Virus record (IMG/VR): IMGVR_UViG_3300023174_000191
Coordinates: 1 to 58,423 of that record
DNA from: a virus
Taxonomy: Duplodnaviria > Caudoviricetes
Reading direction: 5' to 3' (one strand)
Length of the DNA: 58,423 nucleotides
Position numbers and translations under genes: made by a program. The notes under the pieces were generated by a model that saw nothing but the letters and a program-made list of their open reading frames with translations, did no database searches and was not told the origin of the DNA. Below are positions 1,581 to 47,440 of this stretch, one piece after another; positions within the stretch are counted from its first letter, which is position 1, and the number at the start of each line of letters is the position of its first letter.

Positions 1581-4500
1581 TTAAAAAATATTTTGTAATC
1601 CTTGATAAAAGGCTTGTGATAGTCCTAAATTTGTAATTAATGCAGAAACTGTTACATCTCCTGTTGTATTTGAAACCTGAACATTAGCTCCTGCTATTAT
1701 ACTTGTAACTCCTCCATTAGCGGCATTTGTAGCATATGAAGCTGTTCCAAATAATGAACCCGTTATAGAACCTGATACTCTTAAAGATCCTGTTATTTGA
1801 ACTTGCGAACCAGCTGCAAATACTAAATTTGATCTAGCATTAGTAGCTGTACCGTTACCTACAATGAAAGCGGAATCTACTGAAGAGGTTTGATTATATT
1901 GACCTACTACAGACTGATAGGCTCCTTTTGCATATGTATAAAATCCTGCAGCGTGTGAGTAATCTCCTGATGCTAGTGTTGCAAATCCTTCAGCGTGAGA
2001 AGCCTCTCCTGATGATACTGTATATTTACCTTCAGCATGAGAATATGAACCAATTGCTTTCGCTGAATTTCCTTCAGTATGAGAATATGAACCAGAAGCA
2101 TACCCATAACCGTATAGACTAGCATAACTATCTAAAAACGGTGTCGATAAAGTAAAAGTTGTAATATTTAAACCTGCATTGTGTGTAGCGCTAGATATTA
2201 CTGGTTTAGGATTATGTCTTGGATATCCAAAATCAACTGCTACATAATAATTGTTTTCATCAGTATTAGATAGTTGTAAATCATTGATAGTATAAGGATA
2301 AGATATTGAACCTGTAAAATTTCCATTTACAGCAACTGAATTATATGTGATAGAAGATACTTGTGAACTTACAGGCCCAAATACAATATTGGCATTTGTC
2401 GATAACGTTGAATAATTATACTCTATATCAGCTCCAAGTCCTTCAGCGTGTGAATATGACCCTAATGCGTCAGTATATAATCCTTCAGCGTGTGATTGAG
2501 CACCTGATGCTATTGTGCCTCCTCCTTCAGCGTGCGAAGCATTTCCTAATGCTTGGGTACCTGCTCCTTCAGCATGTGAAGATTGTCCTGTTGCGTTATT
2601 ATATTGTCCTTCTGCATGTGAGTAAGAACCTGATGCTATTGTACTTACTCCTTCAGCGTGTGATTGAGCACCTGATGCTATTGTACTTACTCCTTCTGCG
2701 TGTGAATATAGACCTGTAGCTTGATTGGTTGTAAATCCTTGAGTAAGAGACCCTGTTATATTTACTGGACCTACTACATTTAAAGATCCAGTTATTTGTG
2801 CTGAACCTGTATATGGAAAAGGAGAACCTCCTGTACTTGCTGTTGTTGTACCATCTGCTAAAAGATATTGAGAACCTGCTCCAGGTTTTATAAATCCTTG
2901 AGTAGAAGTTGTTGAACCTGTTACAGTTAGCCCATTTGTTATTCTAGCTGAACCACTTACGTCTAATGATGATGATGGAGTTGTAGTTCCTATACCGACT
3001 CTACCTGATGAAGAGACAAATAGGAGTGAAGTACTTCCTGATGTTATTTGTAATGGTACTTGTGTTCCTGATCCTGATATGTTAACTGAGCCGCTTATGT
3101 CTAATTTAGCATTAGGTGCTGTTGTTCCTATTCCTATGTTACCTGGGGAGGCATCGATAAACATCCTAATAGTATTTGTTGTATAAAAAGCAGTTCCATC
3201 ATTACCACTTGTACCTATTTGCATTGTACTTCCAAAGTACCTAACAAATCCTGTAAGTCCACTAGTTGGTCTAACAAGTGTAATTTGTGATCCTCCTGAT
3301 CCTGATATTCTTAGTGAACCTGTGGTATTGCTTTGTATATCTATAGAGTTTATAGGTGTTGTTGTTCCTATTCCTATGTTACCTGATGAAGATACAAATA
3401 GGTTGCTATTCCCTACTAAAAATTGAGTAGCATTTGAAGATGACACTGTTAAAGATCCAGTTATTGTCTCATTTCCTATTACAGTATTTGATCCTGTTAT
3501 TAATAAAGATCCTGTTACTCTATGTGTATCTGTTATTGCACCTCCTAATGTTACCCCAGTTCCTGTTACTAAAAATTCAGTCATACTACCACTTACTACA
3601 CTAAATTGTGTAGGAGTAACAGAGGCTGTTACAGAACCAGTTGCTATTTGAGTAAAATTCCCTGCAATTGCTGTGGTGGGTATTGAGTTTAGATTTGCAC
3701 CTGAACCTGAAAATGATCCTGAGAATGAACCATTACCTCCTTGTGCAAAAGAAGCTGTTAGTGCAAGAGAAGCTGTTACAGCTCTTGAAGAAGAGACTGC
3801 AAATGAACTACTTACACTATTTGAAGCCCAAGAAGATGTTCCAAATAATGATCCTGTTATACCTCCATTTACTCCTAATGATCCTGTTATTTCAACTGTA
3901 GAATCATGAGCATATATTAAGTTTGATCTATTACTATCGTCAGTTCCATTACCAACAATAAAAGCTGCAGGTATGAGCGATGTAGCGTTCCAATGGCCCT
4001 GTACATGTTGATGATCGGCTAATGCTATTGTTTGATACCCCTCCGCGTGTGAATAAGATCCTGATGCTATTGTTTCTTGACCTTCAGCGTGTGAATAGTC
4101 TCCTTTTGCTTGGGTAAAATCTCCTTCAGCATGTGAATAGTTTCCTATTGCTTTAGTAATACTTCCTTCAGCGTGTGAGTTTTCTCCGGTTGCTATATTC
4201 CCCTCTAATCCTTGAATAAGAGAGCCTGTTATTGTTTGATTTCCTTTAAAAGTACTTGGCCCTATTACCTCTAATGAACCAGTTATTTTAGCAGATCCGG
4301 TATATGGAAAAGGTGATACATATCCTGATAAATAAGATGCTGTTAATGCGTTTGTAGCATATGAAGCTGTTCCAAATAATGAACCTGTTATACCTTGTGT
4401 TACATTTAGTGAACCTGTAATTACTGCAGAGCCTGAAAATGGAAATCCTGCTCCAGTGCCTCCGCCACTAGAAGATCCTGATACAAAAGATGCTGTTAAT

Positions 4501-4616
4501 TGTAAAGATGTAACTAAATTTCCTAGACCATCATAAACTTGCCCGGAAGATGATATTTGCATCAAATTCCGAAATGATTGATATGTTTTTTGACCTGTTA
4601 AATTTGATATTGCCAT
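1581..4616 (-). CDS. Long tail fibre/adhesin with YadA-head-like SHAEG repeats and GNIGIGTT.P repeats
   Basis: Three blocks of 14-aa (S/A)HAEG repeats, three G(N/R)(I/V)GIGTT.P units and many ITGSL units. Confidence 0.8.
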   Translation of the reverse strand: MAISNLTGQKTYQSFRNLMQISSSGQVYDGLGNLVTSLQLTASFVSGSSSGGGTGAGFPFSGSAVITGSLNVTQGITGSLFGTASYATNALTASYLSGYVSPFPYTGSAKITGSLEVIGPSTFKGNQTITGSLIQGLEGNIATGENSHAEGSITKAIGNYSHAEGDFTQAKGDYSHAEGQETIASGSYSHAEGYQTIALADHQHVQGHWNATSLIPAAFIVGNGTDDSNRSNLIYAHDSTVEITGSLGVNGGITGSLFGTSSWASNSVSSSFAVSSSRAVTASLALTASFAQGGNGSFSGSFSGSGANLNSIPTTAIAGNFTQIATGSVTASVTPTQFSVVSGSMTEFLVTGTGVTLGGAITDTHRVTGSLLITGSNTVIGNETITGSLTVSSSNATQFLVGNSNLFVSSSGNIGIGTTTPINSIDIQSNTTGSLRISGSGGSQITLVRPTSGLTGFVRYFGSTMQIGTSGNDGTAFYTTNTIRMFIDASPGNIGIGTTAPNAKLDISGSVNISGSGTQVPLQITSGSTSLLFVSSSGRVGIGTTTPSSSLDVSGSARITNGLTVTGSTTSTQGFIKPGAGSQYLLADGTTTASTGGSPFPYTGSAQITGSLNVVGPVNITGSLTQGFTTNQATGLYSHAEGVSTIASGAQSHAEGVSTIASGSYSHAEGQYNNATGQSSHAEGAGTQALGNASHAEGGGTIASGAQSHAEGLYTDALGSYSHAEGLGADIEYNYSTLSTNANIVFGPVSSQVSSITYNSVAVNGNFTGSISYPYTINDLQLSNTDENNYYVAVDFGYPRHNPKPVISSATHNAGLNITTFTLSTPFLDSYASLYGYGYASGSYSHTEGNSAKAIGSYSHAEGKYTVSSGEASHAEGFATLASGDYSHAAGFYTYAKGAYQSVVGQYNQTSSVDSAFIVGNGTATNARSNLVFAAGSQVQITGSLRVSGSITGSLFGTASYATNAANGGVTSIIAGANVQVSNTTGDVTVSALITNLGLSQAFYQGLQNIF

Positions 4617-4634
4617 TTAATCTTTCCCTTTGTA

Positions 4635-4643
4635 ATAAATATC
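4635..4643 (-). promoter_or_regulatory. Putative late promoter (GATATTTAT) in the loop of an inverted repeat
   Basis: Recurring motif about 20 nt upstream of a structural gene start; flanked by ttccctttgt/acaaaaggaa. Confidence 0.6.
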
Positions 4644-4658
4644 ACAAAAGGAATTTCT

Positions 4659-7600
4659 TTATCCAATATATGCAGCTCCCCATGAATTATTTAAATCAAA
4701 CTGTATTGATCCTACTTGTACTTGCGCTTTCAGCGTATCATTTACAGCTAAGTAGACAATACCGCTTACTCCAAAGTGTTGAGGTCCTGTATTTGTAGAA
4801 GATTCCCACATTAATACACTTGTTGCTGAGTTTCTATACACAATTATCTGCTGCATTGCATTTACACTTCCACATCTTGCATTTAGAAAAACACTGTAAA
4901 GTCCTGCAACTGGTGCTGTAAATGTACCATTTGTATTGTTATAATAGTTACCTTGATTATAATCTACACCAACCATTGAGCCACTTAAGACTGTTATAGC
5001 AGTTCTATCTGTACTAGAAGAACCTGATACTCTAAATGCTGGTCTGTTAGGCATTGTAACAGAACCACTTGACACTGTAATTGAACCTGATACTCGTAGT
5101 GAACCTGTAACTTGGAATGTACTTCCTGATGTAAATACTAAGTTGCTTCTTGATGTATTTGATGTGCCATTTCCTATTATAAATGAATTTTGTAAAGTGG
5201 AATATCTATTGTAGGTACCTACTACTAATTGTGAATTACTTCCAGAAAGATATGTACCGCATATTATGTTATACGCTCCGAGGTTTGTGTTCTGATATCC
5301 ATTATTTATTGTAGAACTATTAATAGCATAAGTTGACTGATATGAAGACGTTATTATACCAGTATTAATATTACTAGTATAGATATTTCGCCATTTAAAA
5401 TTTTTAGATGTATCCCAGGATTCATTGTAAATTCCTAAATCATATAAATTATCAGATATCGGTGAAAAGCTTCCATAAGATAATGTTCCAGCAGTACCTC
5501 CTAACAACGCACTGTCTTTGAATTGTAAAATTTTAGTTTTTAAACCTTCAGACTCAGCTAATTGAACAATTTTTAATTCTGAAAACCTTATATGTGTCAC
5601 TTCACTGCCATCTGATACTGCAGTTCGCTGTTGCCATTCCAGTTTAATTTTAAATTTTGAATATACATTAAATGAACCGTCGCTTGATTCTTTATATGTT
5701 AAAACTGGTGTTAATGGTATATTAACATCTATCCATTCAAAAAATGAGTTTTGTACTTTAAATTCTCTATATAATTCATTATCATTTTCATCATATATAT
5801 ATACCCATAATCTAAGCTGACCGCTAAACTCACTGCTATAATCTTTAAATCCGTTTAGGTTTCCAAATTTAGCAGCAAATTGCAACACTAAAGGTTTGAA
5901 ATTTGCATTTGCTTTGCTTAATATAGAAGATGAAATGTGAAAATTATCGCTGGTTAATGAGAATGTAGAAGCGTCAGAACCTACTGGCATGATTAAATGA
6001 TCTACTGTAGTTTTATTTGACCCAAATGTAATTTTATCTTGATATTCAGGAATTTCATAAGACTGCTTAATATCTCCTAATTTTTCAAAGTCTTGCGGTA
6101 TAGATTTAATTTTGTATGATAAATTATCAAATGAACCGGAGCCGGCTTTATAAGTCGCTGCTACAGGGTTGCCATATACAAATATTGTTTTTCCAGAAGT
6201 ATAATCAGTTCCTTCACCTCTCCATCTAGACAATCCAAAACTCATTGTGGTTTGTGGCTTTACTGATAGATCTTGCGCTCCTACTGCTATGCTATTTACT
6301 GTGTCAATAACTGCTGAGCTAGTAAACCATGGTTCAATTAAATATCTAGTAATTACTGATGAACCTGATATTTGTGATTGCGGAGTTACGCCTGATATTA
6401 TTATATTTTCAAATAATCCTTCAGTAGCATTAATATTTCCTTTAACATATACATTTCCTTGAGGTGATATTGAAAAATTTGAAGATGATATTTGAAATAT
6501 GGTTCCAGAGCCAGAAATGTATGAAGCTGCTGGATCTCCTAAAAAGAAATTTTTAGTTCGAATATCTAACAATCCAGACCCTGATGTCGTATATTTGAAA
6601 TATGAAGTTGGATTTGCGACTAATTCAATACCTACTCCTGAATATTCTTCTGAAGAACCTAATGGGCTATTTACTGCAGTTAATAAAGGTTTTATAGAAC
6701 CAGAATAAATTACAAATCCTGCAAAGCCTACCGGAGAACCTCCAGAGACTGTCGTTGCATTTTTAAATCCTGAATATCCTATACTGCGAATCATAGAAGC
6801 ATTTCCTTTTCCCGATAAATGTACTCCGGTTCCTGTCGCGCCTGCTACGTAAAGTGAACCAGTCATTAAGTTATCATCTCCGCCTATGTAAGTATTTCCT
6901 CCTTGCAGCGTGTTATCTCTAACTTCAATTACTTGTTTTGACGCGTTTCCTGCAGGATTAACAAACTCAAATTTAAAATCTATTTTTTCATTTCTATGAG
7001 ATGTAGGTAACGAAAATGTGTTTTGCAATGAAGATGTATTAAATCCAAATTCGTCTGCATATGAAGTAATGTCAGTTTCATTTAATAATATATATTCATT
7101 AATACCTGACGATCTATAATACGTTCTAATTTTAGCAATTTCTCCTGTAAGTGGACTTAAATTTGTAAACGAAGCAGTTATAATATTATATGTATTTTGT
7201 GTTGTATTAGAAAATACATACCCGTACGCATCTGGCTCCGTAGGCATTACGTAGCTAATATCCATTCTATTTAAATCTAAAGATTTAGGATAAAATCTAT
7301 CGTTACTATTTGACAATGCATAAGATAATGGCTCTGATAAATATGCTATTAATGAACCGCTATATGATGAAATGCTGGCACTTACTGTTTGCGATACAAT
7401 ATTTGAAGGTCTGGTAGGATCTGAATTTACAATTCTGCTATATGTAAATGATATAGTAGCATTTTCAATATGTGATAAAAATCCATAAATTGGAGCTCCA
7501 TTATCATAAGAACTTATACTTAGGTTTGCAGGTAATATTATTACAGGAGTATCATTATTATAATAATATTTAATATAGTTAGCTCCATTAGTTGTATAGC

Positions 7601-38845: not shown

Positions 38846-40159
38846 TTAATTAGATTCTTCCATATCAACAACTCCAGTATCTTTTACAATACCTTCTAAC
38901 ACTTTAAACTCAAAAGATTTATGTTTATAAACTTTCGGAGTCATACCAACGTTATCAATTCTAACACATACACCTTCTCTAATATGAGAATCGTCTAATT
39001 TAGAAGCTCCTTTTGAGGCTTCATCTACGACACAACCTAACATATTATAAACATCTCTGTCGTCTGAAGAATTAATCATTACTGCTACCATTTCTAAAGA
39101 AGTGACAAATAACTCTGGTACATACTTAACACCTATTTCATCACAACGCTTCTTAACGTCGTCCCAAGTTAAATCTACAGACTGTCCATCTTCATTTGTG
39201 TTAGTAATTCTATATACATACACTTCACATTCTTTTTCAGCACACCCATAAGAGTAAGACATTTGCTTACCATATAATTTAGTAAACTCTTTATCTCCCA
39301 TTTTAGTGGTATCAACTGAAGGCATTATAGAAGCTCCCGTAGATTCAAAACCTACAATTTCAAAATACACAGCTTCTCCTTTTCTTAAATTACCCTTGAA
39401 AAGATTGAATGCCTTTTCTCTAATAGTTGGGTCATGAAATTGAGTACCTTTAGTCTCTTCTAAAACAACTCTACGAGTACCATTTAGATATGCCCATTCT
39501 TTATCTTGAATATTAACACCTATAAACTTTGCAAATTTGTCTTTGAAAGAAAGAGGTCTATCAACTAAAACGTGAGCAACTCTACCTGAAGTACCATGAA
39601 GCTTTTCTGTAACTACTAACCTTTGACCTGCTCTGAAATCAGTTACATGTTTACCAAAGTGGTCGGTATCAAAATGTTCTTTAAACATAATTGAAGTTTT
39701 TGCTACTTTAATTTTCTTACCTTGATTCTCTCTAGCTAATTTCAAAGTGTTTGGGTTGATGTACTTTTCACAGATAGGAACGCCTTTCCATTCAGTAAAC
39801 TCAAAACCTTCAACGTCTAATCCAGTTACTTGAATAAAACCAAATTGATGAATCGGAACCCAAAATCCGTCAGATACTTCTCCTCTGAATTTTTGTGTTC
39901 TAACTCTTCGGTTCTCGTCAAACATACCTGGCTTATCGTTTGGAAATTTATTCATCTCTGACTTACGATACAAGTTGTTAGCAAAACAAAATTCATGAGA
40001 AAGTTGACCGTCTGTCGGAAAATAAACTCCTAAAGCATCTTCATTGTTGTCTAATCCTACTACTACTTGGTTACCATGACAAGTAGCTAATTGCACTTTA
40101 TCGGCATTAGGATGAGGTCTTACGTTTTTTAATTTGGTAACGATTGCTGCATACGCCAT
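38846..40159 (-). CDS. RNA ligase (DRB0094/Rnl2-like) with N-terminal OB-like domain
   Basis: PHPNAD.. N-terminus, K.RG..S.G, motif I TEKLHGTS, FEIVG, REGVCVR, YKHKS. Confidence 0.88.
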   Translation of the reverse strand: MAYAAIVTKLKNVRPHPNADKVQLATCHGNQVVVGLDNNEDALGVYFPTDGQLSHEFCFANNLYRKSEMNKFPNDKPGMFDENRRVRTQKFRGEVSDGFWVPIHQFGFIQVTGLDVEGFEFTEWKGVPICEKYINPNTLKLARENQGKKIKVAKTSIMFKEHFDTDHFGKHVTDFRAGQRLVVTEKLHGTSGRVAHVLVDRPLSFKDKFAKFIGVNIQDKEWAYLNGTRRVVLEETKGTQFHDPTIREKAFNLFKGNLRKGEAVYFEIVGFESTGASIMPSVDTTKMGDKEFTKLYGKQMSYSYGCAEKECEVYVYRITNTNEDGQSVDLTWDDVKKRCDEIGVKYVPELFVTSLEMVAVMINSSDDRDVYNMLGCVVDEASKGASKLDDSHIREGVCVRIDNVGMTPKVYKHKSFEFKVLEGIVKDTGVVDMEESN

Positions 40160-41240: not shown

Positions 41241-41313
41241 TGGTAGCGGTCGCCGGATTCGAACCGAACTTTAGGGTTATGAGCCCTTCGTGCTACCTTT
41301 ACACTACCCCGCG
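41241..41313 (-). tRNA. tRNA-Met(CAT), initiator-like, CCA encoded
   Basis: CGCGGGG 5' end, three G-C pairs in the anticodon stem AGGG-CTCATAA-CCCT, GGTTCGAATCC, 3' ACCA. Confidence 0.85.
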
Positions 41314-41334
41314 GTATATTGGTAATAATTATGT

Positions 41335-41660
41335 TATCGGGAGAATAAAGTATATAGACTAAATCAAAATCAAAATCAATGTCAAAGACCTTCCGTTACA
41401 GCAAAGACAAAAACAAAAACTAAGTCTCGTTTCGTTAGCCACTTTTAATCTCCCATCAGGAGTAACATGTCTAACTATTGAGTTCTATCTCAGTTTGGTT
41501 TAATTTGTAACAGAAGCGAGTTGGCTGGTAGGCACGGGGCCTACGTTAATTGCTGTTGATTAGTATCATATATCTTTATAAGTTATAAATTGCTTTATAG
41601 CTCCCGATATTAAACTTCCAGGTATCGGCTTTTGCTCATCCTTTCAGTACCACAACTACT
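41335..41660 (-). ncRNA. Putative structured ncRNA with ten phased hexamer repeats
   Basis: Closing helix TATCGGGAG/CTCCCGATA, 11-bp helix CTTCTGTTACA/TGTAACGGAAG, several hairpins; no credible ORF. Confidence 0.6.
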
Positions 41661-41663
41661 TTT

Positions 41664-42575
41664 CTATTTTATTGTTTTAAGAAACTCATCCACTACTGGT
41701 TGGAATCTAGGAGCAACGTCTATTTTAAGAGCCACTGCTGCTTCAATTCTTTCTTGGCGTTTAGCCTCAAATTCTTGAGTTTCTTTTCTTACGAAAGCTG
41801 ACCATTCTTCATTTAGCTTTTTATATTCATCACGTAAAATTTGGTTAGCTTCATTTGCTTTTGCCACTGCATCTCCATTTTCATTTGCAATTCGAGCATT
41901 TTCTTTAGTCACAGCATTTTTTACTTTCGACTTGAAGTAATTTACTTTTTGCTCATATTCTCTATGAGTATTTGCTAACTCTTCATGTATTGAAAGCAAT
42001 TGAGCGGAAGTGTGATGAACTGCTACTTTCATAGGAGTTTTCTTTCCTGTTTCAATTTCCATGAATTCCAAAGTTTTAATTTTTGGCAATTCTGTTCTTA
42101 AACGATCTAAAGTTCCTCCTTTATGGATAAACTGACCGATGTGCGCTGCATAAGCCTCTGCTTCTAAAAATTCATTATATTCAGCAGCTGATAATTCATT
42201 CCAAGCCCACTCTTCAGAAACAAGTTCTTTTAATTCAACTTCAACATACTCTGGAGATTCTGGTCTAGGTTCTGAAGGATAATATTGCTCTTTTTGAATA
42301 GACTTAATCAAAGAATCTTTCGCTTTGATATTTTCCATTAAAAATGCTTGAGTAGCAGCAAGTCTTGCTTTTTCTTGAATTAACTCAGCTACATTACCTG
42401 GTAAAGGTTTTGCTGGAGTTTCAATATAAGTGTCAGAACCGATTGTCAACGTCTTTTCAACGTTATTAACATCAGACAATGTATTAGACAATTCGATAGA
42501 TCTCTGATTACACAAATTAGAGATTGATTGTGCTTGAGACAAAGATAACCCTTTAGTAGATAATGAATTTTTCAT
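41664..42575 (-). CDS. Uncharacterised long alpha-helical/coiled-coil protein (303 aa)
   Basis: Glu/Ala/Lys-rich helical sequence; sits inside the tRNA region immediately upstream of the putative ncRNA. Confidence 0.85.
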   Translation of the reverse strand: MKNSLSTKGLSLSQAQSISNLCNQRSIELSNTLSDVNNVEKTLTIGSDTYIETPAKPLPGNVAELIQEKARLAATQAFLMENIKAKDSLIKSIQKEQYYPSEPRPESPEYVEVELKELVSEEWAWNELSAAEYNEFLEAEAYAAHIGQFIHKGGTLDRLRTELPKIKTLEFMEIETGKKTPMKVAVHHTSAQLLSIHEELANTHREYEQKVNYFKSKVKNAVTKENARIANENGDAVAKANEANQILRDEYKKLNEEWSAFVRKETQEFEAKRQERIEAAVALKIDVAPRFQPVVDEFLKTIK

Positions 42576-42861: not shown

Positions 42862-42901
42862 CTTCATAAATATAAGATAACCTTTTGGAGTATCCTAATC
42901 T
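42862..42901 (-). repeat. 40-bp exact direct repeat (other copy at 48385-48424), promoter-like
   Basis: cttcataaatataagataaccttttggagtatcctaatct is identical at both sites. Confidence 0.85.
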
Positions 42902-43821
42902 AAATTATAAATAGTTTCACATTCAGCGAATAATTTTTCATATCGTGCGTCAAATTCTCCTAACTGATTTAACGAATTTACTACCACGTCTAATACTAGA
43001 GTTCTAGTAAATTTATTATCATAATATTTTTTCAGCCCCCAAGAATGTTTTATAGCATTTGCTATTTGTGCCGTTTCTATATTACTATCTAAAGGCGGAA
43101 CCCATTCTATTCCATTTGAATCAATATCTCCTCCAATATGAGGTTGATATACTGATTTTAGAATTTCGCTTTTTGTTAAATTTAAATCATCTATTAGCAC
43201 AGGCAATAACCTTTGTTCTATAAACATTGTACTGCAATCTTCATTAACAAAATTAAATTGTTTTGAATGAGTTTGTTCAATTATCTTACTTGAAATTTCA
43301 AACCATTTTGTAATCAATTCTTTAAAATTAGAATTAAAGCATACTATAGCACAATTTACTGGGTTTATATTCCAATTATAATTTACATCGTCAATCCAAT
43401 TAATTGGATCTGGATATACATTAAAAGGATCATATTCGGCAATAGCTTCTTGATGATAAAATACAAAATCAGTTTCATTACTAATTAAATTAGGCTCTGA
43501 AATCCATAGATCAGTATCAAATATACAAAATCTAGTTTCTTCACGAGCTAATTTATTAGCTAAATATATTTTACAAAAACTCCAAAATTTATTTGAGTAT
43601 TCTTTATATGGATTAGTTTCTAAAAACTGAGTATTTATTTCGTCATACTCTTCATCTAATCCATATTTGCTAATAGAATCTAAATATCTTTGATTGCAAT
43701 ATAATTTAACTGACCCGTAATTCTTTTTCCAAAATTTAATAGAAGCTAATTGAACTAAATAATTTATAGCTTCAAACTCGCCATCATCTTTTGTTTGATA
43801 ATAAACATGATATCCTGTCAT
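42895..43821 (-). CDS. Putative nucleotide-diphospho-sugar transferase-like protein (DUF6734-like)
   Basis: S...W...YG.V.LY, FW...K.Y, F.IFD.D (DxD), NCAIV, F.EQRLL, H.WG.K. Confidence 0.55.
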   Translation of the reverse strand: MTGYHVYYQTKDDGEFEAINYLVQLASIKFWKKNYGSVKLYCNQRYLDSISKYGLDEEYDEINTQFLETNPYKEYSNKFWSFCKIYLANKLAREETRFCIFDTDLWISEPNLISNETDFVFYHQEAIAEYDPFNVYPDPINWIDDVNYNWNINPVNCAIVCFNSNFKELITKWFEISSKIIEQTHSKQFNFVNEDCSTMFIEQRLLPVLIDDLNLTKSEILKSVYQPHIGGDIDSNGIEWVPPLDSNIETAQIANAIKHSWGLKKYYDNKFTRTLVLDVVVNSLNQLGEFDARYEKLFAECETIYNLD

Positions 43822-47240: not shown

Positions 47241-47440
47241 ATTATATCAAATTAGCCTCAATTTCTTGAGTTTCCAACATCGCCACGTGGAGGCTTTGAT
47301 ATGATGTCGCTGAGTGTCGTTGCTACTCTATATTGCCTGGCCAGACTATATTTCACCATTCTCGTTTATTTTAATTCGGTAACCCCTACTACCCGCCTGG
47401 TACCACGAATATAAAAATATCTTTTTCTAATTTCTATACA

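What the first reader, a model, noticed from the sequence alone, without database searches (positions are those of the whole stretch)
41335..42575. Coiled-coil protein gene followed by a ~330-nt structured RNA with ten phased hexamer repeats
Seen: directly after the stop of the 303-aa helical ORF, the minus strand has a non-coding stretch. It is closed by a long-range helix TATCGGGAG (41609-41601)/CTCCCGATA (41343-41335), extended by ATAAAG/CTTTAT. It contains an 11-bp helix CTTCTGTTACA/TGTAACGGAAG with one G-U pair, and hairpins GTAGGC/GCCTAC and CTCC/GGAG. Either side of the 3' strand of the 11-bp helix lie strictly 6-nt-phased units: GACTTA GTTTTT GTTTTT GTCTTT [helix] GTCTTT GACATT GATTTT GATTTT GATTTA GTCTAT (41426-41354). 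Inference: periodic single-stranded G-initiated hexamers suggest sites bound one per subunit by an oligomeric protein (TRAP-like logic) or a template. The adjacent uncharacterised protein is the obvious partner, which would make this a protein-plus-ncRNA module within the tRNA transcript. I cannot assign it to a named RNA family.
Basis: partly seen in the sequence, partly recalled or inferred. Interest (0 to 1): 0.85.

Follow-up and report, generated by a model that had tools for sequence, protein, structure and literature searches.

The report
Phage hexamer-array RNA with partner gene
Directly after a conserved phage gene of unknown function lies a folded non-coding RNA of about 335 bases, absent from the RNA catalogue, that carries two rows of evenly spaced UUG triplets and travels with that gene in nearly every related phage, so the two probably form an undescribed RNA-protein module.

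Summary
Minus strand 41660-41324 is a real, uncatalogued structured RNA.

Structure: four helices covary across 45 homologues. I add a fifth, a terminal helix that joins the two ends.

Arrays: two single-stranded arrays of fixed length hold 5+5 units of NNN-UUG. UUG is conserved (pairwise identity 0.86). The spacers are freer (0.61).

Linkage: the RNA follows the 303-aa gene in 74 of 80 protein-seeded loci. Five misses are cut contigs; one distant homologue truly lacks it. All 38 RNA-seeded loci carry the gene.

Databases: Rfam has no match in the window or in nine relatives. The protein folds confidently but has no Pfam, PHROG, PDB or fold match.

RNA libraries: contigs show an end at the closing helix. 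One 372-nt contig joins the RNA's 3' end to its 5' end, a lead for a circular or head-to-tail form.

Best reading (about 0.45): an RNA-protein module. An oligomeric protein reads the phased UUG triplets by TRAP/HutP logic. The neighbour is the first candidate, though it is mildly acidic and binding is untested. It is not a VIPR guide, not coding and not ROOL/GOLLD.

This scan had already noted the same family on other phage DNA.

The parts
41664..42575 (-). 303-aa orphan gene (p303), stop codon included
   Evidence: ORF list. No Pfam, PHROG, NCBIfam or PADLOC family. 2414 homologous clusters, all unnamed. AF2 mean pLDDT 87.4.
41324..41660 (-). Whole structured RNA, from the 5' strand to the 3' strand of terminal helix P1 (337 nt)
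   Evidence: Coordinates. Conserved in 74 of 80 loci. Covariation. No Rfam match.
41652..41660 (-). P1 5' strand (AGTAGTTGT), followed by the invariant GGU
   Evidence: Register-specific pairing with the tail. Register 0 is paired in 45 of 45 sequences with 4 pair types (0 of 500 shuffles reach this). Mean contiguous run is 3.84 bp, against 1.12 when tails are permuted. The covariation scan lists columns 17-484.
41324..41332 (-). P1 3' strand (ATAATTATT), preceded by the conserved RAC
41614..41648 (-). H1 hairpin with conserved loop AAGCAnAAGCCGA that holds a 2-bp mini-stem
   Evidence: 8+2 pairs, all with changes on both sides; 89.7% and 100% of cells paired.
41601..41609 (-). H2 5' strand (TATCGGGAG), long-range
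   Evidence: The eight pairs in columns 64-72 with 474-481 each have 7-18 of 45 sequences changed on both sides.
41335..41343 (-). H2 3' strand (CTCCCGATA)
   Evidence: An RNA-library contig abuts adapter-like letters at 41337.
41517..41592 (-). Poorly conserved A/U-rich region with a G+C hairpin (41544-41528)
   Evidence: Pairwise identity 0.43 for alignment columns 82-226, the aligned region between H2 and H3. Alignment.
41506..41516 (-). H3 5' strand (CTTCTGTTACA)
   Evidence: Forms a 9-11-bp duplex in 45 of 45 sequences, in 36 distinct versions.
41390..41400 (-). H3 3' strand (TGTAACGGAAG), lying between the two arrays
   Evidence: The G-to-G distance across it is 19 nt in 29 sequences and 18 nt in 16.
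41434..41491 (-). Inner domain: small hairpin 41491-41480; helix H5 (41475-41467 with 41443-41434); variable hairpin 41462-41450
   Evidence: H5 has 8 pairs, 7 of them with changes on both sides; 94.5% of cells paired.
41402..41428 (-). 5' array: GAG-ACU-UAG then three NNN-UUG units
   Evidence: G at alignment columns 389, 395, 401, 407 and 413, with UU before it. TRF period 6.
41352..41389 (-). 3' array: five NNN-U(U/A)G units, then the invariant CUAUAU
   Evidence: G at alignment columns 432, 438, 444, 450 and 456. Unique phased pattern in the window.
41245..41312 (-). tRNA-Met directly downstream. This is context only, present in the window and its three closest relatives.
   Evidence: Rfam tRNA, 37.7 bits. 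Missed by ARAGORN. The tails of the other loci differ.

Best explanation
The stretch 41660-41324 (-) encodes a member of an undescribed family of phage non-coding RNAs of about 320-340 nt.

Architecture:
- A terminal helix (P1) joins the two ends.
- Inside it, a 5' hairpin (H1) and a long-range helix (H2) form a junction.
- H2 encloses a variable region and a second long-range helix (H3).
- H3 in turn encloses a small conserved domain.

Two single-stranded arrays of fixed length flank the 3' strand of H3. Each holds five units of three freer bases followed by UUG (UAG in some units).

Inferred mechanism: identical subunits of an oligomeric protein each read one UUG triplet. The spacers loop out, as in TRAP with its (G/U)AG triplets. 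The two arrays are engaged separately, as HutP engages two XAG-rich sites either side of a stem strand.

The first candidate binder is the product of the 303-aa gene that always precedes the RNA. The pair would then be an RNA-protein particle. It would work within the phage's tRNA and RNA-repair programme, next to which it is encoded.

Shown: the RNA fold, the phasing, the gene linkage, and presence in RNA libraries.
Inferred: protein binding, the identity of the binder, and the function.
For: 1. Fold. H1, H2 and H5 covary. H3 does so in 45 of 45 sequences. P1 does so by register.

2. Arrays.
- G recurs every 6 nt with UU before it.
- There are no indels in either array across 45 sequences whose proteins are 47-96% identical to the window's.
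- UUG columns have pairwise identity 0.857 and spacer columns 0.613.
- So triplets are read and spacers are tolerated.

3. Independent arrays. The phase between the two arrays is not kept (19 nt in 29 sequences, 18 nt in 16). They therefore act as two separate sites. The HutP paper's abstract describes two XAG-rich sites either side of a G-C-rich stem segment, bound by dual surfaces.

4. Linkage.
- The RNA core follows the gene in 74 of 80 protein-seeded loci. Five misses end within about 250 nt of the gene.
- In a search seeded with a 15-mer of the RNA, 38 of 86 loci hold the RNA core. 36 of those hold the gene just upstream on the same strand.
- The other 2 have under 300 nt of room, and their contigs carry the gene.
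- At least 9 of the 38 are contigs not in the first set.
- 4 of 6 GTDB loci have the RNA core. A fifth shows its 5' hairpin before the contig ends.

5. No other neighbour is comparably constant. The next families occur in 27, 26 and 24 loci, against 78 for p303.

6. Where small ORFs of 64-102 aa sit between the gene and the RNA, the RNA is still whole. This was so in 9 of 11 such loci examined.

7. RNA libraries. Contigs 90-99% alike lie on the RNA in 4 of 4 runs laid. One contig abuts adapter-like letters at 41337, the end of H2.
Against: - No binding datum exists.
- p303 is mildly acidic: pI 5.61 in the window, 5.42-6.68 in 33 homologues.
- p303 has no known RNA-binding fold. Foldseek on PDB gives no match at E <= 0.001. 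BFVD returns only an uncharacterised homologue. The best VIA Z is 8.0, among unrelated helical proteins.
- One distant homologue, L081 (42% identity), has a hairpin and another ORF where the RNA should be.
- Small ORFs can separate the gene and the RNA. The linkage could therefore reflect a shared operon rather than a physical complex.
- The spacers are not free. They have a consensus of A-Y-N and are more conserved than ORF third codon positions (0.61 against 0.44). Spacers that merely loop out would not need this.
Confidence: 0.45

Rival explanations
1. Sponge or decoy for a host factor. The RNA accumulates as a stable species, and its ten UUG sites titrate a host oligomeric RNA-binding protein or draw off a host ribonuclease. 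p303 serves another role, such as processing, or none towards the RNA.
For: - p303 is acidic.
- The RNA sits between tRNA arrays and genes for a metallophosphoesterase (24 loci), an AAA_33 kinase-like protein (19 loci) and an RNA ligase (11 loci). That is a setting of conflict over RNA.
- The first unit of the 3' array reads CUUUGAC. By my own reading of the alignment printed, this equals the anticodon loop of the window's tRNA-Gln(UUG).
Against: - A sponge usually tolerates changes in copy number. Here both arrays have a fixed length in 45 of 45 sequences.
- Strict two-way linkage to p303 is not needed for a host-directed decoy.
- The host is unknown. The genome search found only unclassified or doubtfully binned MAG contigs.
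Confidence: 0.2
2. Protein-free ornate RNA, like ROOL and GOLLD. The arrays make tertiary or intermolecular contacts in an RNA-only assembly.
For: - ROOL and GOLLD are phage and prophage RNAs that often lie near tRNA islands, have unknown function and form homo-oligomers (passages read in PMC12286853).
- This RNA also lies at tRNA arrays: 59 of 80 loci hold tRNAs in the 3-kb flanks.
- It is closed by helices.
Against: - No Rfam match to ROOL, GOLLD or any other family, in the window or in 9 homologous loci at E <= 1.
- It is much smaller.
- I found no covarying partner for the arrays in an all-against-all column scan. The top pairs are the known helices.
- The obligate protein gene has no counterpart in ROOL or GOLLD.
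Confidence: 0.1
3. Cis-acting tail of the p303 operon. The structure acts as a stabiliser, terminator or processing signal for the upstream message and has no role in trans.
For: - It is always downstream on the same strand.
- In many relatives a U-run follows the 3' strand of P1 (tails printed).
- One RNA-library contig spans the ORF and the RNA, 41343-42563. A contig does not show a single transcript.
Against: - About 335 nt with five covarying helices and ten phased triplets is far more than stabilisers or terminators need.
- Parts of the RNA are more conserved than the protein's own codons. UUG columns are at 0.857, ORF codon positions 1, 2 and 3 at 0.65, 0.73 and 0.44.
- Small ORFs can lie between the gene and the RNA.
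Confidence: 0.1
4. VIPR-like gapped guide. A protein holds the UUG parts, and the variable NNN of successive units together read a gapped nucleic-acid target.
For: - Same grammar of a conserved part alternating with a variable part in a phage RNA. vrRNAs carry 9-16 YNNGG repeats bound by a phage protein (Results section of bioRxiv 10.64898/2026.04.26.720920).
- A 6-nt period is the step of CRISPR RAMP backbones, as that paper notes.
Against: - The spacers are not hypervariable. Their pairwise identity is 0.613, above ORF third positions (0.442) and above the RNA's own variable region (0.430).
- Window and L002 differ at only 2 array positions.
- There is one RNA per locus, not several of about 100 nt.
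- p303 is helical with two beta-hairpins and gave no RAMP match.
Confidence: 0.05
5. It codes for a small peptide, perhaps through a prfB-like +1 shift at CUU UGA C that would join the two arrays into one frame of alternating hydrophobic residues.
For: - The junction reads GGAAGG-U-CUU-UGA-C. My recollection is that prfB has an SD-like element followed by CUU UGA C.
- A 29-codon GUG frame runs through the arrays (read).
Against: - One-base indels occur inside the stretch between the arrays (18 nt in 16 sequences, 19 nt in 29) and downstream of them.
- All three bases of UUG are conserved while whole neighbouring triplets vary. This is not a third-position pattern.
- The frame that reads the repeats has no start codon in the window.
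- The helix that would be translated covaries as RNA.
Confidence: 0.02

Closest known systems
TRAP with the trp leader of Bacillus (recalled knowledge; the listing shows papers on TRAP)
   Same: A run of about ten identical triplets ending in G, separated by short spacers of little sequence constraint, on single-stranded RNA next to a helix strand. The logic is one triplet per subunit of a ring.
   Different: - The triplets here are UUG (some UAG), not GAG or UAG.
- The spacing is exactly 3 nt.
- The sites are split into two arrays inside a closed RNA of about 335 nt, not an mRNA leader.
- No TRAP-family protein is present (Pfam).
HutP with the hut terminator RNA (abstract of PMC2425495)
   Same: Two separate arrays of phased XAG-type triplets lie on either side of a stable stem segment. 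They are engaged by two surfaces of one oligomer, which remodels the stem.
   Different: - By my recollection HutP has three UAG per site with 4-nt spacers. Here there are five units per array with 3-nt spacers.
- This is not a leader-terminator setting.
- p303 has no HutP domain.
VIPR systems: Vipr protein plus vrRNA (bioRxiv 10.64898/2026.04.26.720920; abstract and Results read)
   Same: Phage-encoded. An RNA built of short tandem units in which a conserved motif alternates with less conserved bases, encoded beside a dedicated protein gene.
   Different: - The unit is 6 nt, not 5, and the motif is UUG, not GGY.
- The spacers are moderately conserved, not hypervariable.
- There is one large multi-helix RNA rather than several of about 100 nt.
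- The protein is not RAMP-like.
ROOL and GOLLD RNAs (passages of PMC12286853)
   Same: Structured RNAs of phages and prophages, often beside tRNA islands, of unknown function.
   Different: - No Rfam match.
- About 335 nt, against roughly 580-800 nt (sizes partly recalled).
- This RNA has phased triplet arrays and an obligately linked protein gene. The paper states that no protein partner is known for ROOL.

Membership tests
Any Rfam 15 family (including ROOL, GOLLD, tmRNA, YrlA, T-box and self-cleaving ribozymes) | A covariance-model match to the stretch | tested here: not met
   cmscan at E <= 1 gives no match inside 41324-41663. It gives none in the corresponding region of 9 homologous loci. 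ARAGORN finds no tmRNA there.
TRAP-binding RNA | 9-11 (G/U)AG triplets with 2-3-nt spacers | tested here: not met
   The triplets are mostly UUG. At 7 of the 10 phased triplets the middle base is U in at least 80% of 45 sequences (at least 91% at 6 of them). The other three are mostly A. The spacing of 3 nt fits. The definition is recalled.
TRAP-binding RNA | A TRAP (MtrB) protein partner | tested here: not met
   No Pfam family in p303 or in the four other ORFs of the window that I scanned. The rest of the phage and the host were not searched.
HutP-binding RNA | Two XAG-rich sites flanking a stem segment | tested here: inconclusive
   Two arrays do flank the 3' strand of H3. The triplets are UUG, however, and the spacers are 3 nt.
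HutP-binding RNA | A HutP protein | tested here: not met
   No Pfam match in p303.
VIPR (Vipr + vrRNA) | RAMP-fold protein (RRM core, G-loop, thumb) | tested here: inconclusive
   In the AF2 model p303 is helices plus two beta-hairpins. No RAMP appears among the Foldseek or VIA rows. A missing match does not exclude a fold.
VIPR (Vipr + vrRNA) | 9-16 YNNGG units with hypervariable NN | tested here: not met
   The unit is 6 nt with UUG. Spacer identity is 0.613, against 0.442 for ORF third positions.
VIPR (Vipr + vrRNA) | Several vrRNAs of about 100 nt per locus, with a conserved 3' tail | tested here: not met
   One RNA core per locus in 74 of 74 and 38 of 38 loci. The RNA is about 335 nt.
Type III toxin-antitoxin (ToxIN-like) | Tandem repeats of tens of nt upstream of an endoribonuclease gene | tested here: not met
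   The repeats are 6 nt and lie downstream of the gene. No PADLOC family at E < 0.01. The definition is recalled.
Protein-coding gene | An open frame kept across homologues, with third-position variation | tested here: not met
   One-base indels and whole-triplet variation.

The most novel reading that the evidence does not exclude
The RNA is cut out of the operon transcript and covalently closed into a circle of about 340 nt. Terminal helix P1 brings its two ends together, and a healing-and-sealing set encoded nearby could close them. That set is the RNA ligase in this window, plus a kinase-like protein and a phosphoesterase in relatives.

The result would be a DNA-encoded, viroid-sized circular RNA in phages. 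It would carry ten phased UUG sites as an exonuclease-proof platform for an oligomeric protein.

Basis: one 372-nt contig of a lake-water RNA library reads 41543->41323 and then straight on 41662->41529. The tool reports 'goes back 340', depth 10.4, 136 letters on the shorter side. Its two ends overlap, as a closed cycle in an assembly graph would.

The joint falls one base past the 3' strand of P1 and two bases before its 5' strand. None of the 74 + 38 DNA loci has two RNA copies.
Probability: 0.3. Interest if true: 0.9.

Novelty: categorically new. Interest (0 to 1): 0.78.

Why it matters
The partner protein family is very large: 2414 clusters at 90% identity, every one unnamed. The RNA that goes with it is in no catalogue.

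Together they sit in large uncultured phages of 100-430 kb, at the boundary between tRNA arrays and RNA-repair genes. That region is thought to decide contests with host RNA-cutting defences.

A fixed 5+5 array of phased triplets inside a closed RNA is a clear, testable grammar for protein-RNA recognition. It is only known so far from TRAP, HutP and, in another form, VIPR.

If the pair is a particle, it is a new phage RNP. If the RNA is circular as well, it would be a rare case of a gene-encoded circular RNA in a bacterial virus.

Either way, the family gives a function-finding handle on thousands of 'hypothetical' phage proteins.

Tried and rejected
**Homo-oligomer test.** Three copies of p303 with alignment A2 gave 'no answer' (scores 0.01 and 0.27, mark 0.42). 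This is evidence neither way.

**Fold and family searches for p303.** Nothing usable came from any of them:
- Foldseek PDB: no match at E <= 0.001.
- BFVD: only an uncharacterised homologue.
- VIA wide: best Z 8.0, at the level the tool calls common for helical proteins.
- Profile against PDB sequences: apolipophorin-III at E 0.088.
- NCBIfam and PADLOC: only E > 0.02.
- ESM Atlas: no usable hit.
- tblastn of INPHARED phages: no match.

**Free-register pairing of ends.** Pairing between the leader and the tail was no better than shuffles (mean z 0.04; 1 of 45 below -1.5). The helix showed only when counted register by register from the GGU and RAC anchors.

**Partners for the arrays inside the RNA.**
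- AGAC with GUCU. Rejected because the flanking columns do not compensate (C391 faces A in 29% of sequences) and the knot geometry is poor.
It gives 8 bp in the window. L017 and L028 change the array side without compensation (read), so it stays unsupported.
- The all-column covariation scan gave no array partner.

**Coding and prfB-like frameshift.** Rejected; see the rivals.

**Promoter reading of the TTG units.** The sigma-70 scan found 5 sites against 4.9 expected, and none in the arrays.

**Host identification.** Failed. The six genome hits are MAG contigs with unclassified or doubtful labels.

**Covariance model.** Not built. A model spanning H2 would exceed the size that can be calibrated.

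**Depths.** The RNA region reads 1297-1360 against 16 for the ORF in X2, and 486 against 120 in X4. The tool warns that contig depths sum over organisms and cannot rank genes, so I do not use these as expression evidence. Parts without cover in X2 (41506-41811) mean nothing.

**RNA-library caveats.** The libraries may hold DNA, and no DNA run was laid.

**Literature.** Four searches and the passages read gave no description of this RNA.
Full report
**What the window is.**
The window is a 58,423-base fragment of an IMG/VR virus record, estimated 34% complete. Nearly all its genes are on the minus strand.

ARAGORN finds 26 tRNA genes. Rfam adds a tRNA-Met at 41245-41312 (-) that ARAGORN missed.

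The finding lies at the distal end of the main tRNA array. The 303-aa ORF at 41664..42575 (-) is followed by about 350 bases without a credible ORF, then by the tRNA-Met.

**Check of the observation.**
- The phased pattern TTG-N3-TTG-N3-TTG-N3-TTG occurs once in the window, against 0.03 expected.
- TRF reports two period-6 arrays.
- The stretch folds better than its shuffles, z = -2.57.

**Relatives of the protein.**
A search of IMG/VR with the protein confirmed 84 of 90 candidate stretches as relatives. The best 80 were kept; they are 42-96% identical, on contigs of up to 434 kb.

A single-sequence nhmmer search with the RNA's 3' two-thirds found it just downstream in 74 of the 80 loci.
- Five of the misses are loci that end within about 250 bases of the gene.
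- The sixth, L081, is the most distant homologue at 42%. It has a hairpin and another ORF instead.

**The reverse test.**
I searched IMG/VR with a 15-base stretch of the RNA. Of 86 loci, 48 were chance hits without the RNA. The other 38 held the RNA core.
- 36 of the 38 have the gene directly upstream on the same strand.
- The other two have under 300 bases of room, and their contigs carry the gene in the first set.
- At least nine of the 38 contigs are new.

Among six hits in GTDB genomes, all MAG contigs, four have the RNA core. One shows the RNA's 5' hairpin before the contig ends, and one ends inside the gene.

In about a fifth of the loci, one or two small ORFs of 64-102 aa sit between the gene and an intact RNA.

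No other neighbour is nearly as constant.
- tRNAs lie upstream in most close relatives but in none of the most distant ones.
- Downstream neighbours are a metallophosphoesterase (24 loci), an AAA_33 kinase-like protein (19 loci) and an RNA ligase (11 loci). The window's own ligase is at 38846-40159.

**Structure of the RNA.**
I aligned 45 distinct sequences (A1). RNAalifold and a pair count support three helices:
- a 5' hairpin H1, whose conserved loop holds a 2-bp mini-stem;
- an inner helix H5.

Overall, 85.9% of cells are paired, against 64.6% in shuffles (0 of 500 reach it) and 36-48% for slid partners. 30 of 33 pairs change on both sides.

I therefore checked it with anchored duplex folding. 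It forms in 45 of 45 sequences, in 36 distinct versions.

An all-column scan then pointed to columns 17 and 484. Counting by register from the invariant GGU and RAC anchors gives a terminal helix, P1.
- Register 0 is paired in 45 of 45 sequences, with four pair types.
- Registers 1-3 are enriched.
- The mean contiguous run is 3.84 bp, against 1.12 for permuted tails.

In the window P1 is 9 bp (41660-41652 with 41332-41324). The RNA is therefore a closed unit of 337 nt that starts four bases after the stop codon.

The short ATAAAG/CTTTAT extension is only weakly supported.

**The arrays.**
Column statistics show G at columns 389, 395, 401, 407 and 413, and again at 432, 438, 444, 450 and 456. 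At the UUG units the two preceding columns are U at 80-100%. At the first two and the last unit the middle base is mostly A.

There is no indel in either array in 45 sequences.

Pairwise identities:

| Columns | Pairwise identity |
|---|---|
| UUG columns | 0.857 |
| Spacer columns | 0.613 |
| RNA's own variable region | 0.430 |
| ORF codon position 1 | 0.648 |
| ORF codon position 2 | 0.731 |
| ORF codon position 3 | 0.442 |

The stretch between the arrays, which holds the 3' strand of H3, is 19 nt in 29 sequences and 18 nt in 16. The two arrays therefore keep no common phase.

These facts exclude coding. They fit two separately read rows of five triplets.

**The protein.**
AF2 on 33 homologues gives mean pLDDT 87.4 and pTM 0.77. 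The model shows two modules of helix, beta-hairpin and long helix.

Nothing identifies the protein.
- There is no Pfam, PHROG, NCBIfam or PADLOC family, and no PDB sequence match.
- There is no Foldseek match apart from an uncharacterised phage homologue.
- VIA Z scores are at background level.

It has 2414 homologous clusters, none of them named. It is mildly acidic.

**RNA libraries.**
Twenty-four metatranscriptome runs hold parts of the stretch. I laid four, and all four carry contigs 90-99% alike on the RNA. Three details may be told.
1. A 138-nt contig (X2) covers 41337-41454 and continues into letters that I recognise from memory as an Illumina adapter. Many fragments therefore end at 41337, the last base of H2.
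2. A 1222-nt contig (X4) spans 41343-42563 and stops near the same place.
3. A 372-nt contig (X3) is a circular permutation. It reads 41543->41323 and then 41662->41529, with overlapping ends.

The joint in the third contig falls at the foot of P1. It is one contig in one run.
- A tandem DNA copy in that strain, template switching on an abundant RNA, or a true circle would all give it.
- No DNA locus among those examined has two copies.

Contig depths are higher over the RNA than over the ORF. By the tool's own warning they cannot be used to rank expression.

**Interpretation.**
The anatomy is closest to TRAP and HutP. It has identical triplets, tolerated spacers and fixed numbers, and two rows on either side of a helix strand.
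- In TRAP each subunit of a ring reads one triplet (recalled).
- In HutP two XAG-rich sites either side of a stem segment are taken by two surfaces of one oligomer (abstract).

I therefore read the arrays as protein-binding sites, at about 0.55. The obligately linked p303 is the first candidate binder, at about 0.35-0.4, giving 0.45 for the module as stated. Its acidity and unknown fold count against it.

The rivals are a host-directed sponge or decoy, an RNA-only assembly, a cis-acting tail, and a VIPR-like gapped guide. The guide is made unlikely by the conserved spacers, the single large RNA and the non-RAMP protein.

**Earlier notes of this scan.**
The same family was noted on other phage DNA, and three follow-up reports reached a similar verdict. 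I took from them the pointers to VIPR and to the prfB-like word, and tested both here.

New in this report:
- the terminal helix P1;
- the RNA-seeded linkage test;
- the spacer-conservation test;
- the unequal phase of the arrays;
- the homologue that lacks the RNA;
- the RNA-library contigs with the head-to-tail joint.

**Novelty.**
I found no published description. This rests on four literature searches and on passages of three papers.

Noticed in passing
window 47245-47307 (-): Weak match to the HDV-like ribozyme family HDV-F-prausnitzii, just after a tRNA-Gly in the array. It scores 32.5 bits against a gathering score of 44, at E 0.004.
   Followed up: no
window 41245-41312 (-): tRNA-Met found by Rfam (37.7 bits) but missed by ARAGORN. 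Its acceptor stem looks imperfect. It follows the RNA only in the window and its three closest relatives.
   Followed up: partly
L010, L014, L024, L025, L027, L031, L032, L039, L041 (about 3910-4700) and L168: One or two small ORFs of 64-102 aa lie between the 303-aa gene and the RNA. Their start often overlaps the stop (TAATATG). They have no Pfam family in the one I scanned (L031:3918-4208).
   Followed up: partly
loci, e.g. L031:4547-5245, L017:5068-5550; window 38846-40159: Downstream of the RNA, relatives carry separate genes for a metallophosphoesterase, an AAA_33 kinase-like protein and an RNA ligase with an N-terminal OB domain. Together these look like a split healing-and-sealing RNA-repair set.
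   Followed up: partly
L038:34 (+), L009:2078-2112, L037:2636-2718: In the tRNA arrays of relatives, ARAGORN calls a permuted tmRNA in L038. Rfam gives a weak tmRNA fragment in L009 (18 bits) and a weak YrlA-like match in L037 (31.9 bits against a gathering score of 69).
   Followed up: no
window 42895-43821 (-): A 308-aa ORF inside the tRNA array has no Pfam, PHROG, NCBIfam or PADLOC match.
   Followed up: partly
L172 (362,763-base contig), L169: Contigs filed as Paceibacterota and Omnitrophota MAGs carry the gene-RNA pair. They are probably large phage contigs binned with cellular genomes.
   Followed up: no
L081:3907-4400: The most distant homologue (42% identity) has a terminator-like hairpin and another ORF where the RNA should be. 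So the gene can exist without the RNA.
   Followed up: partly
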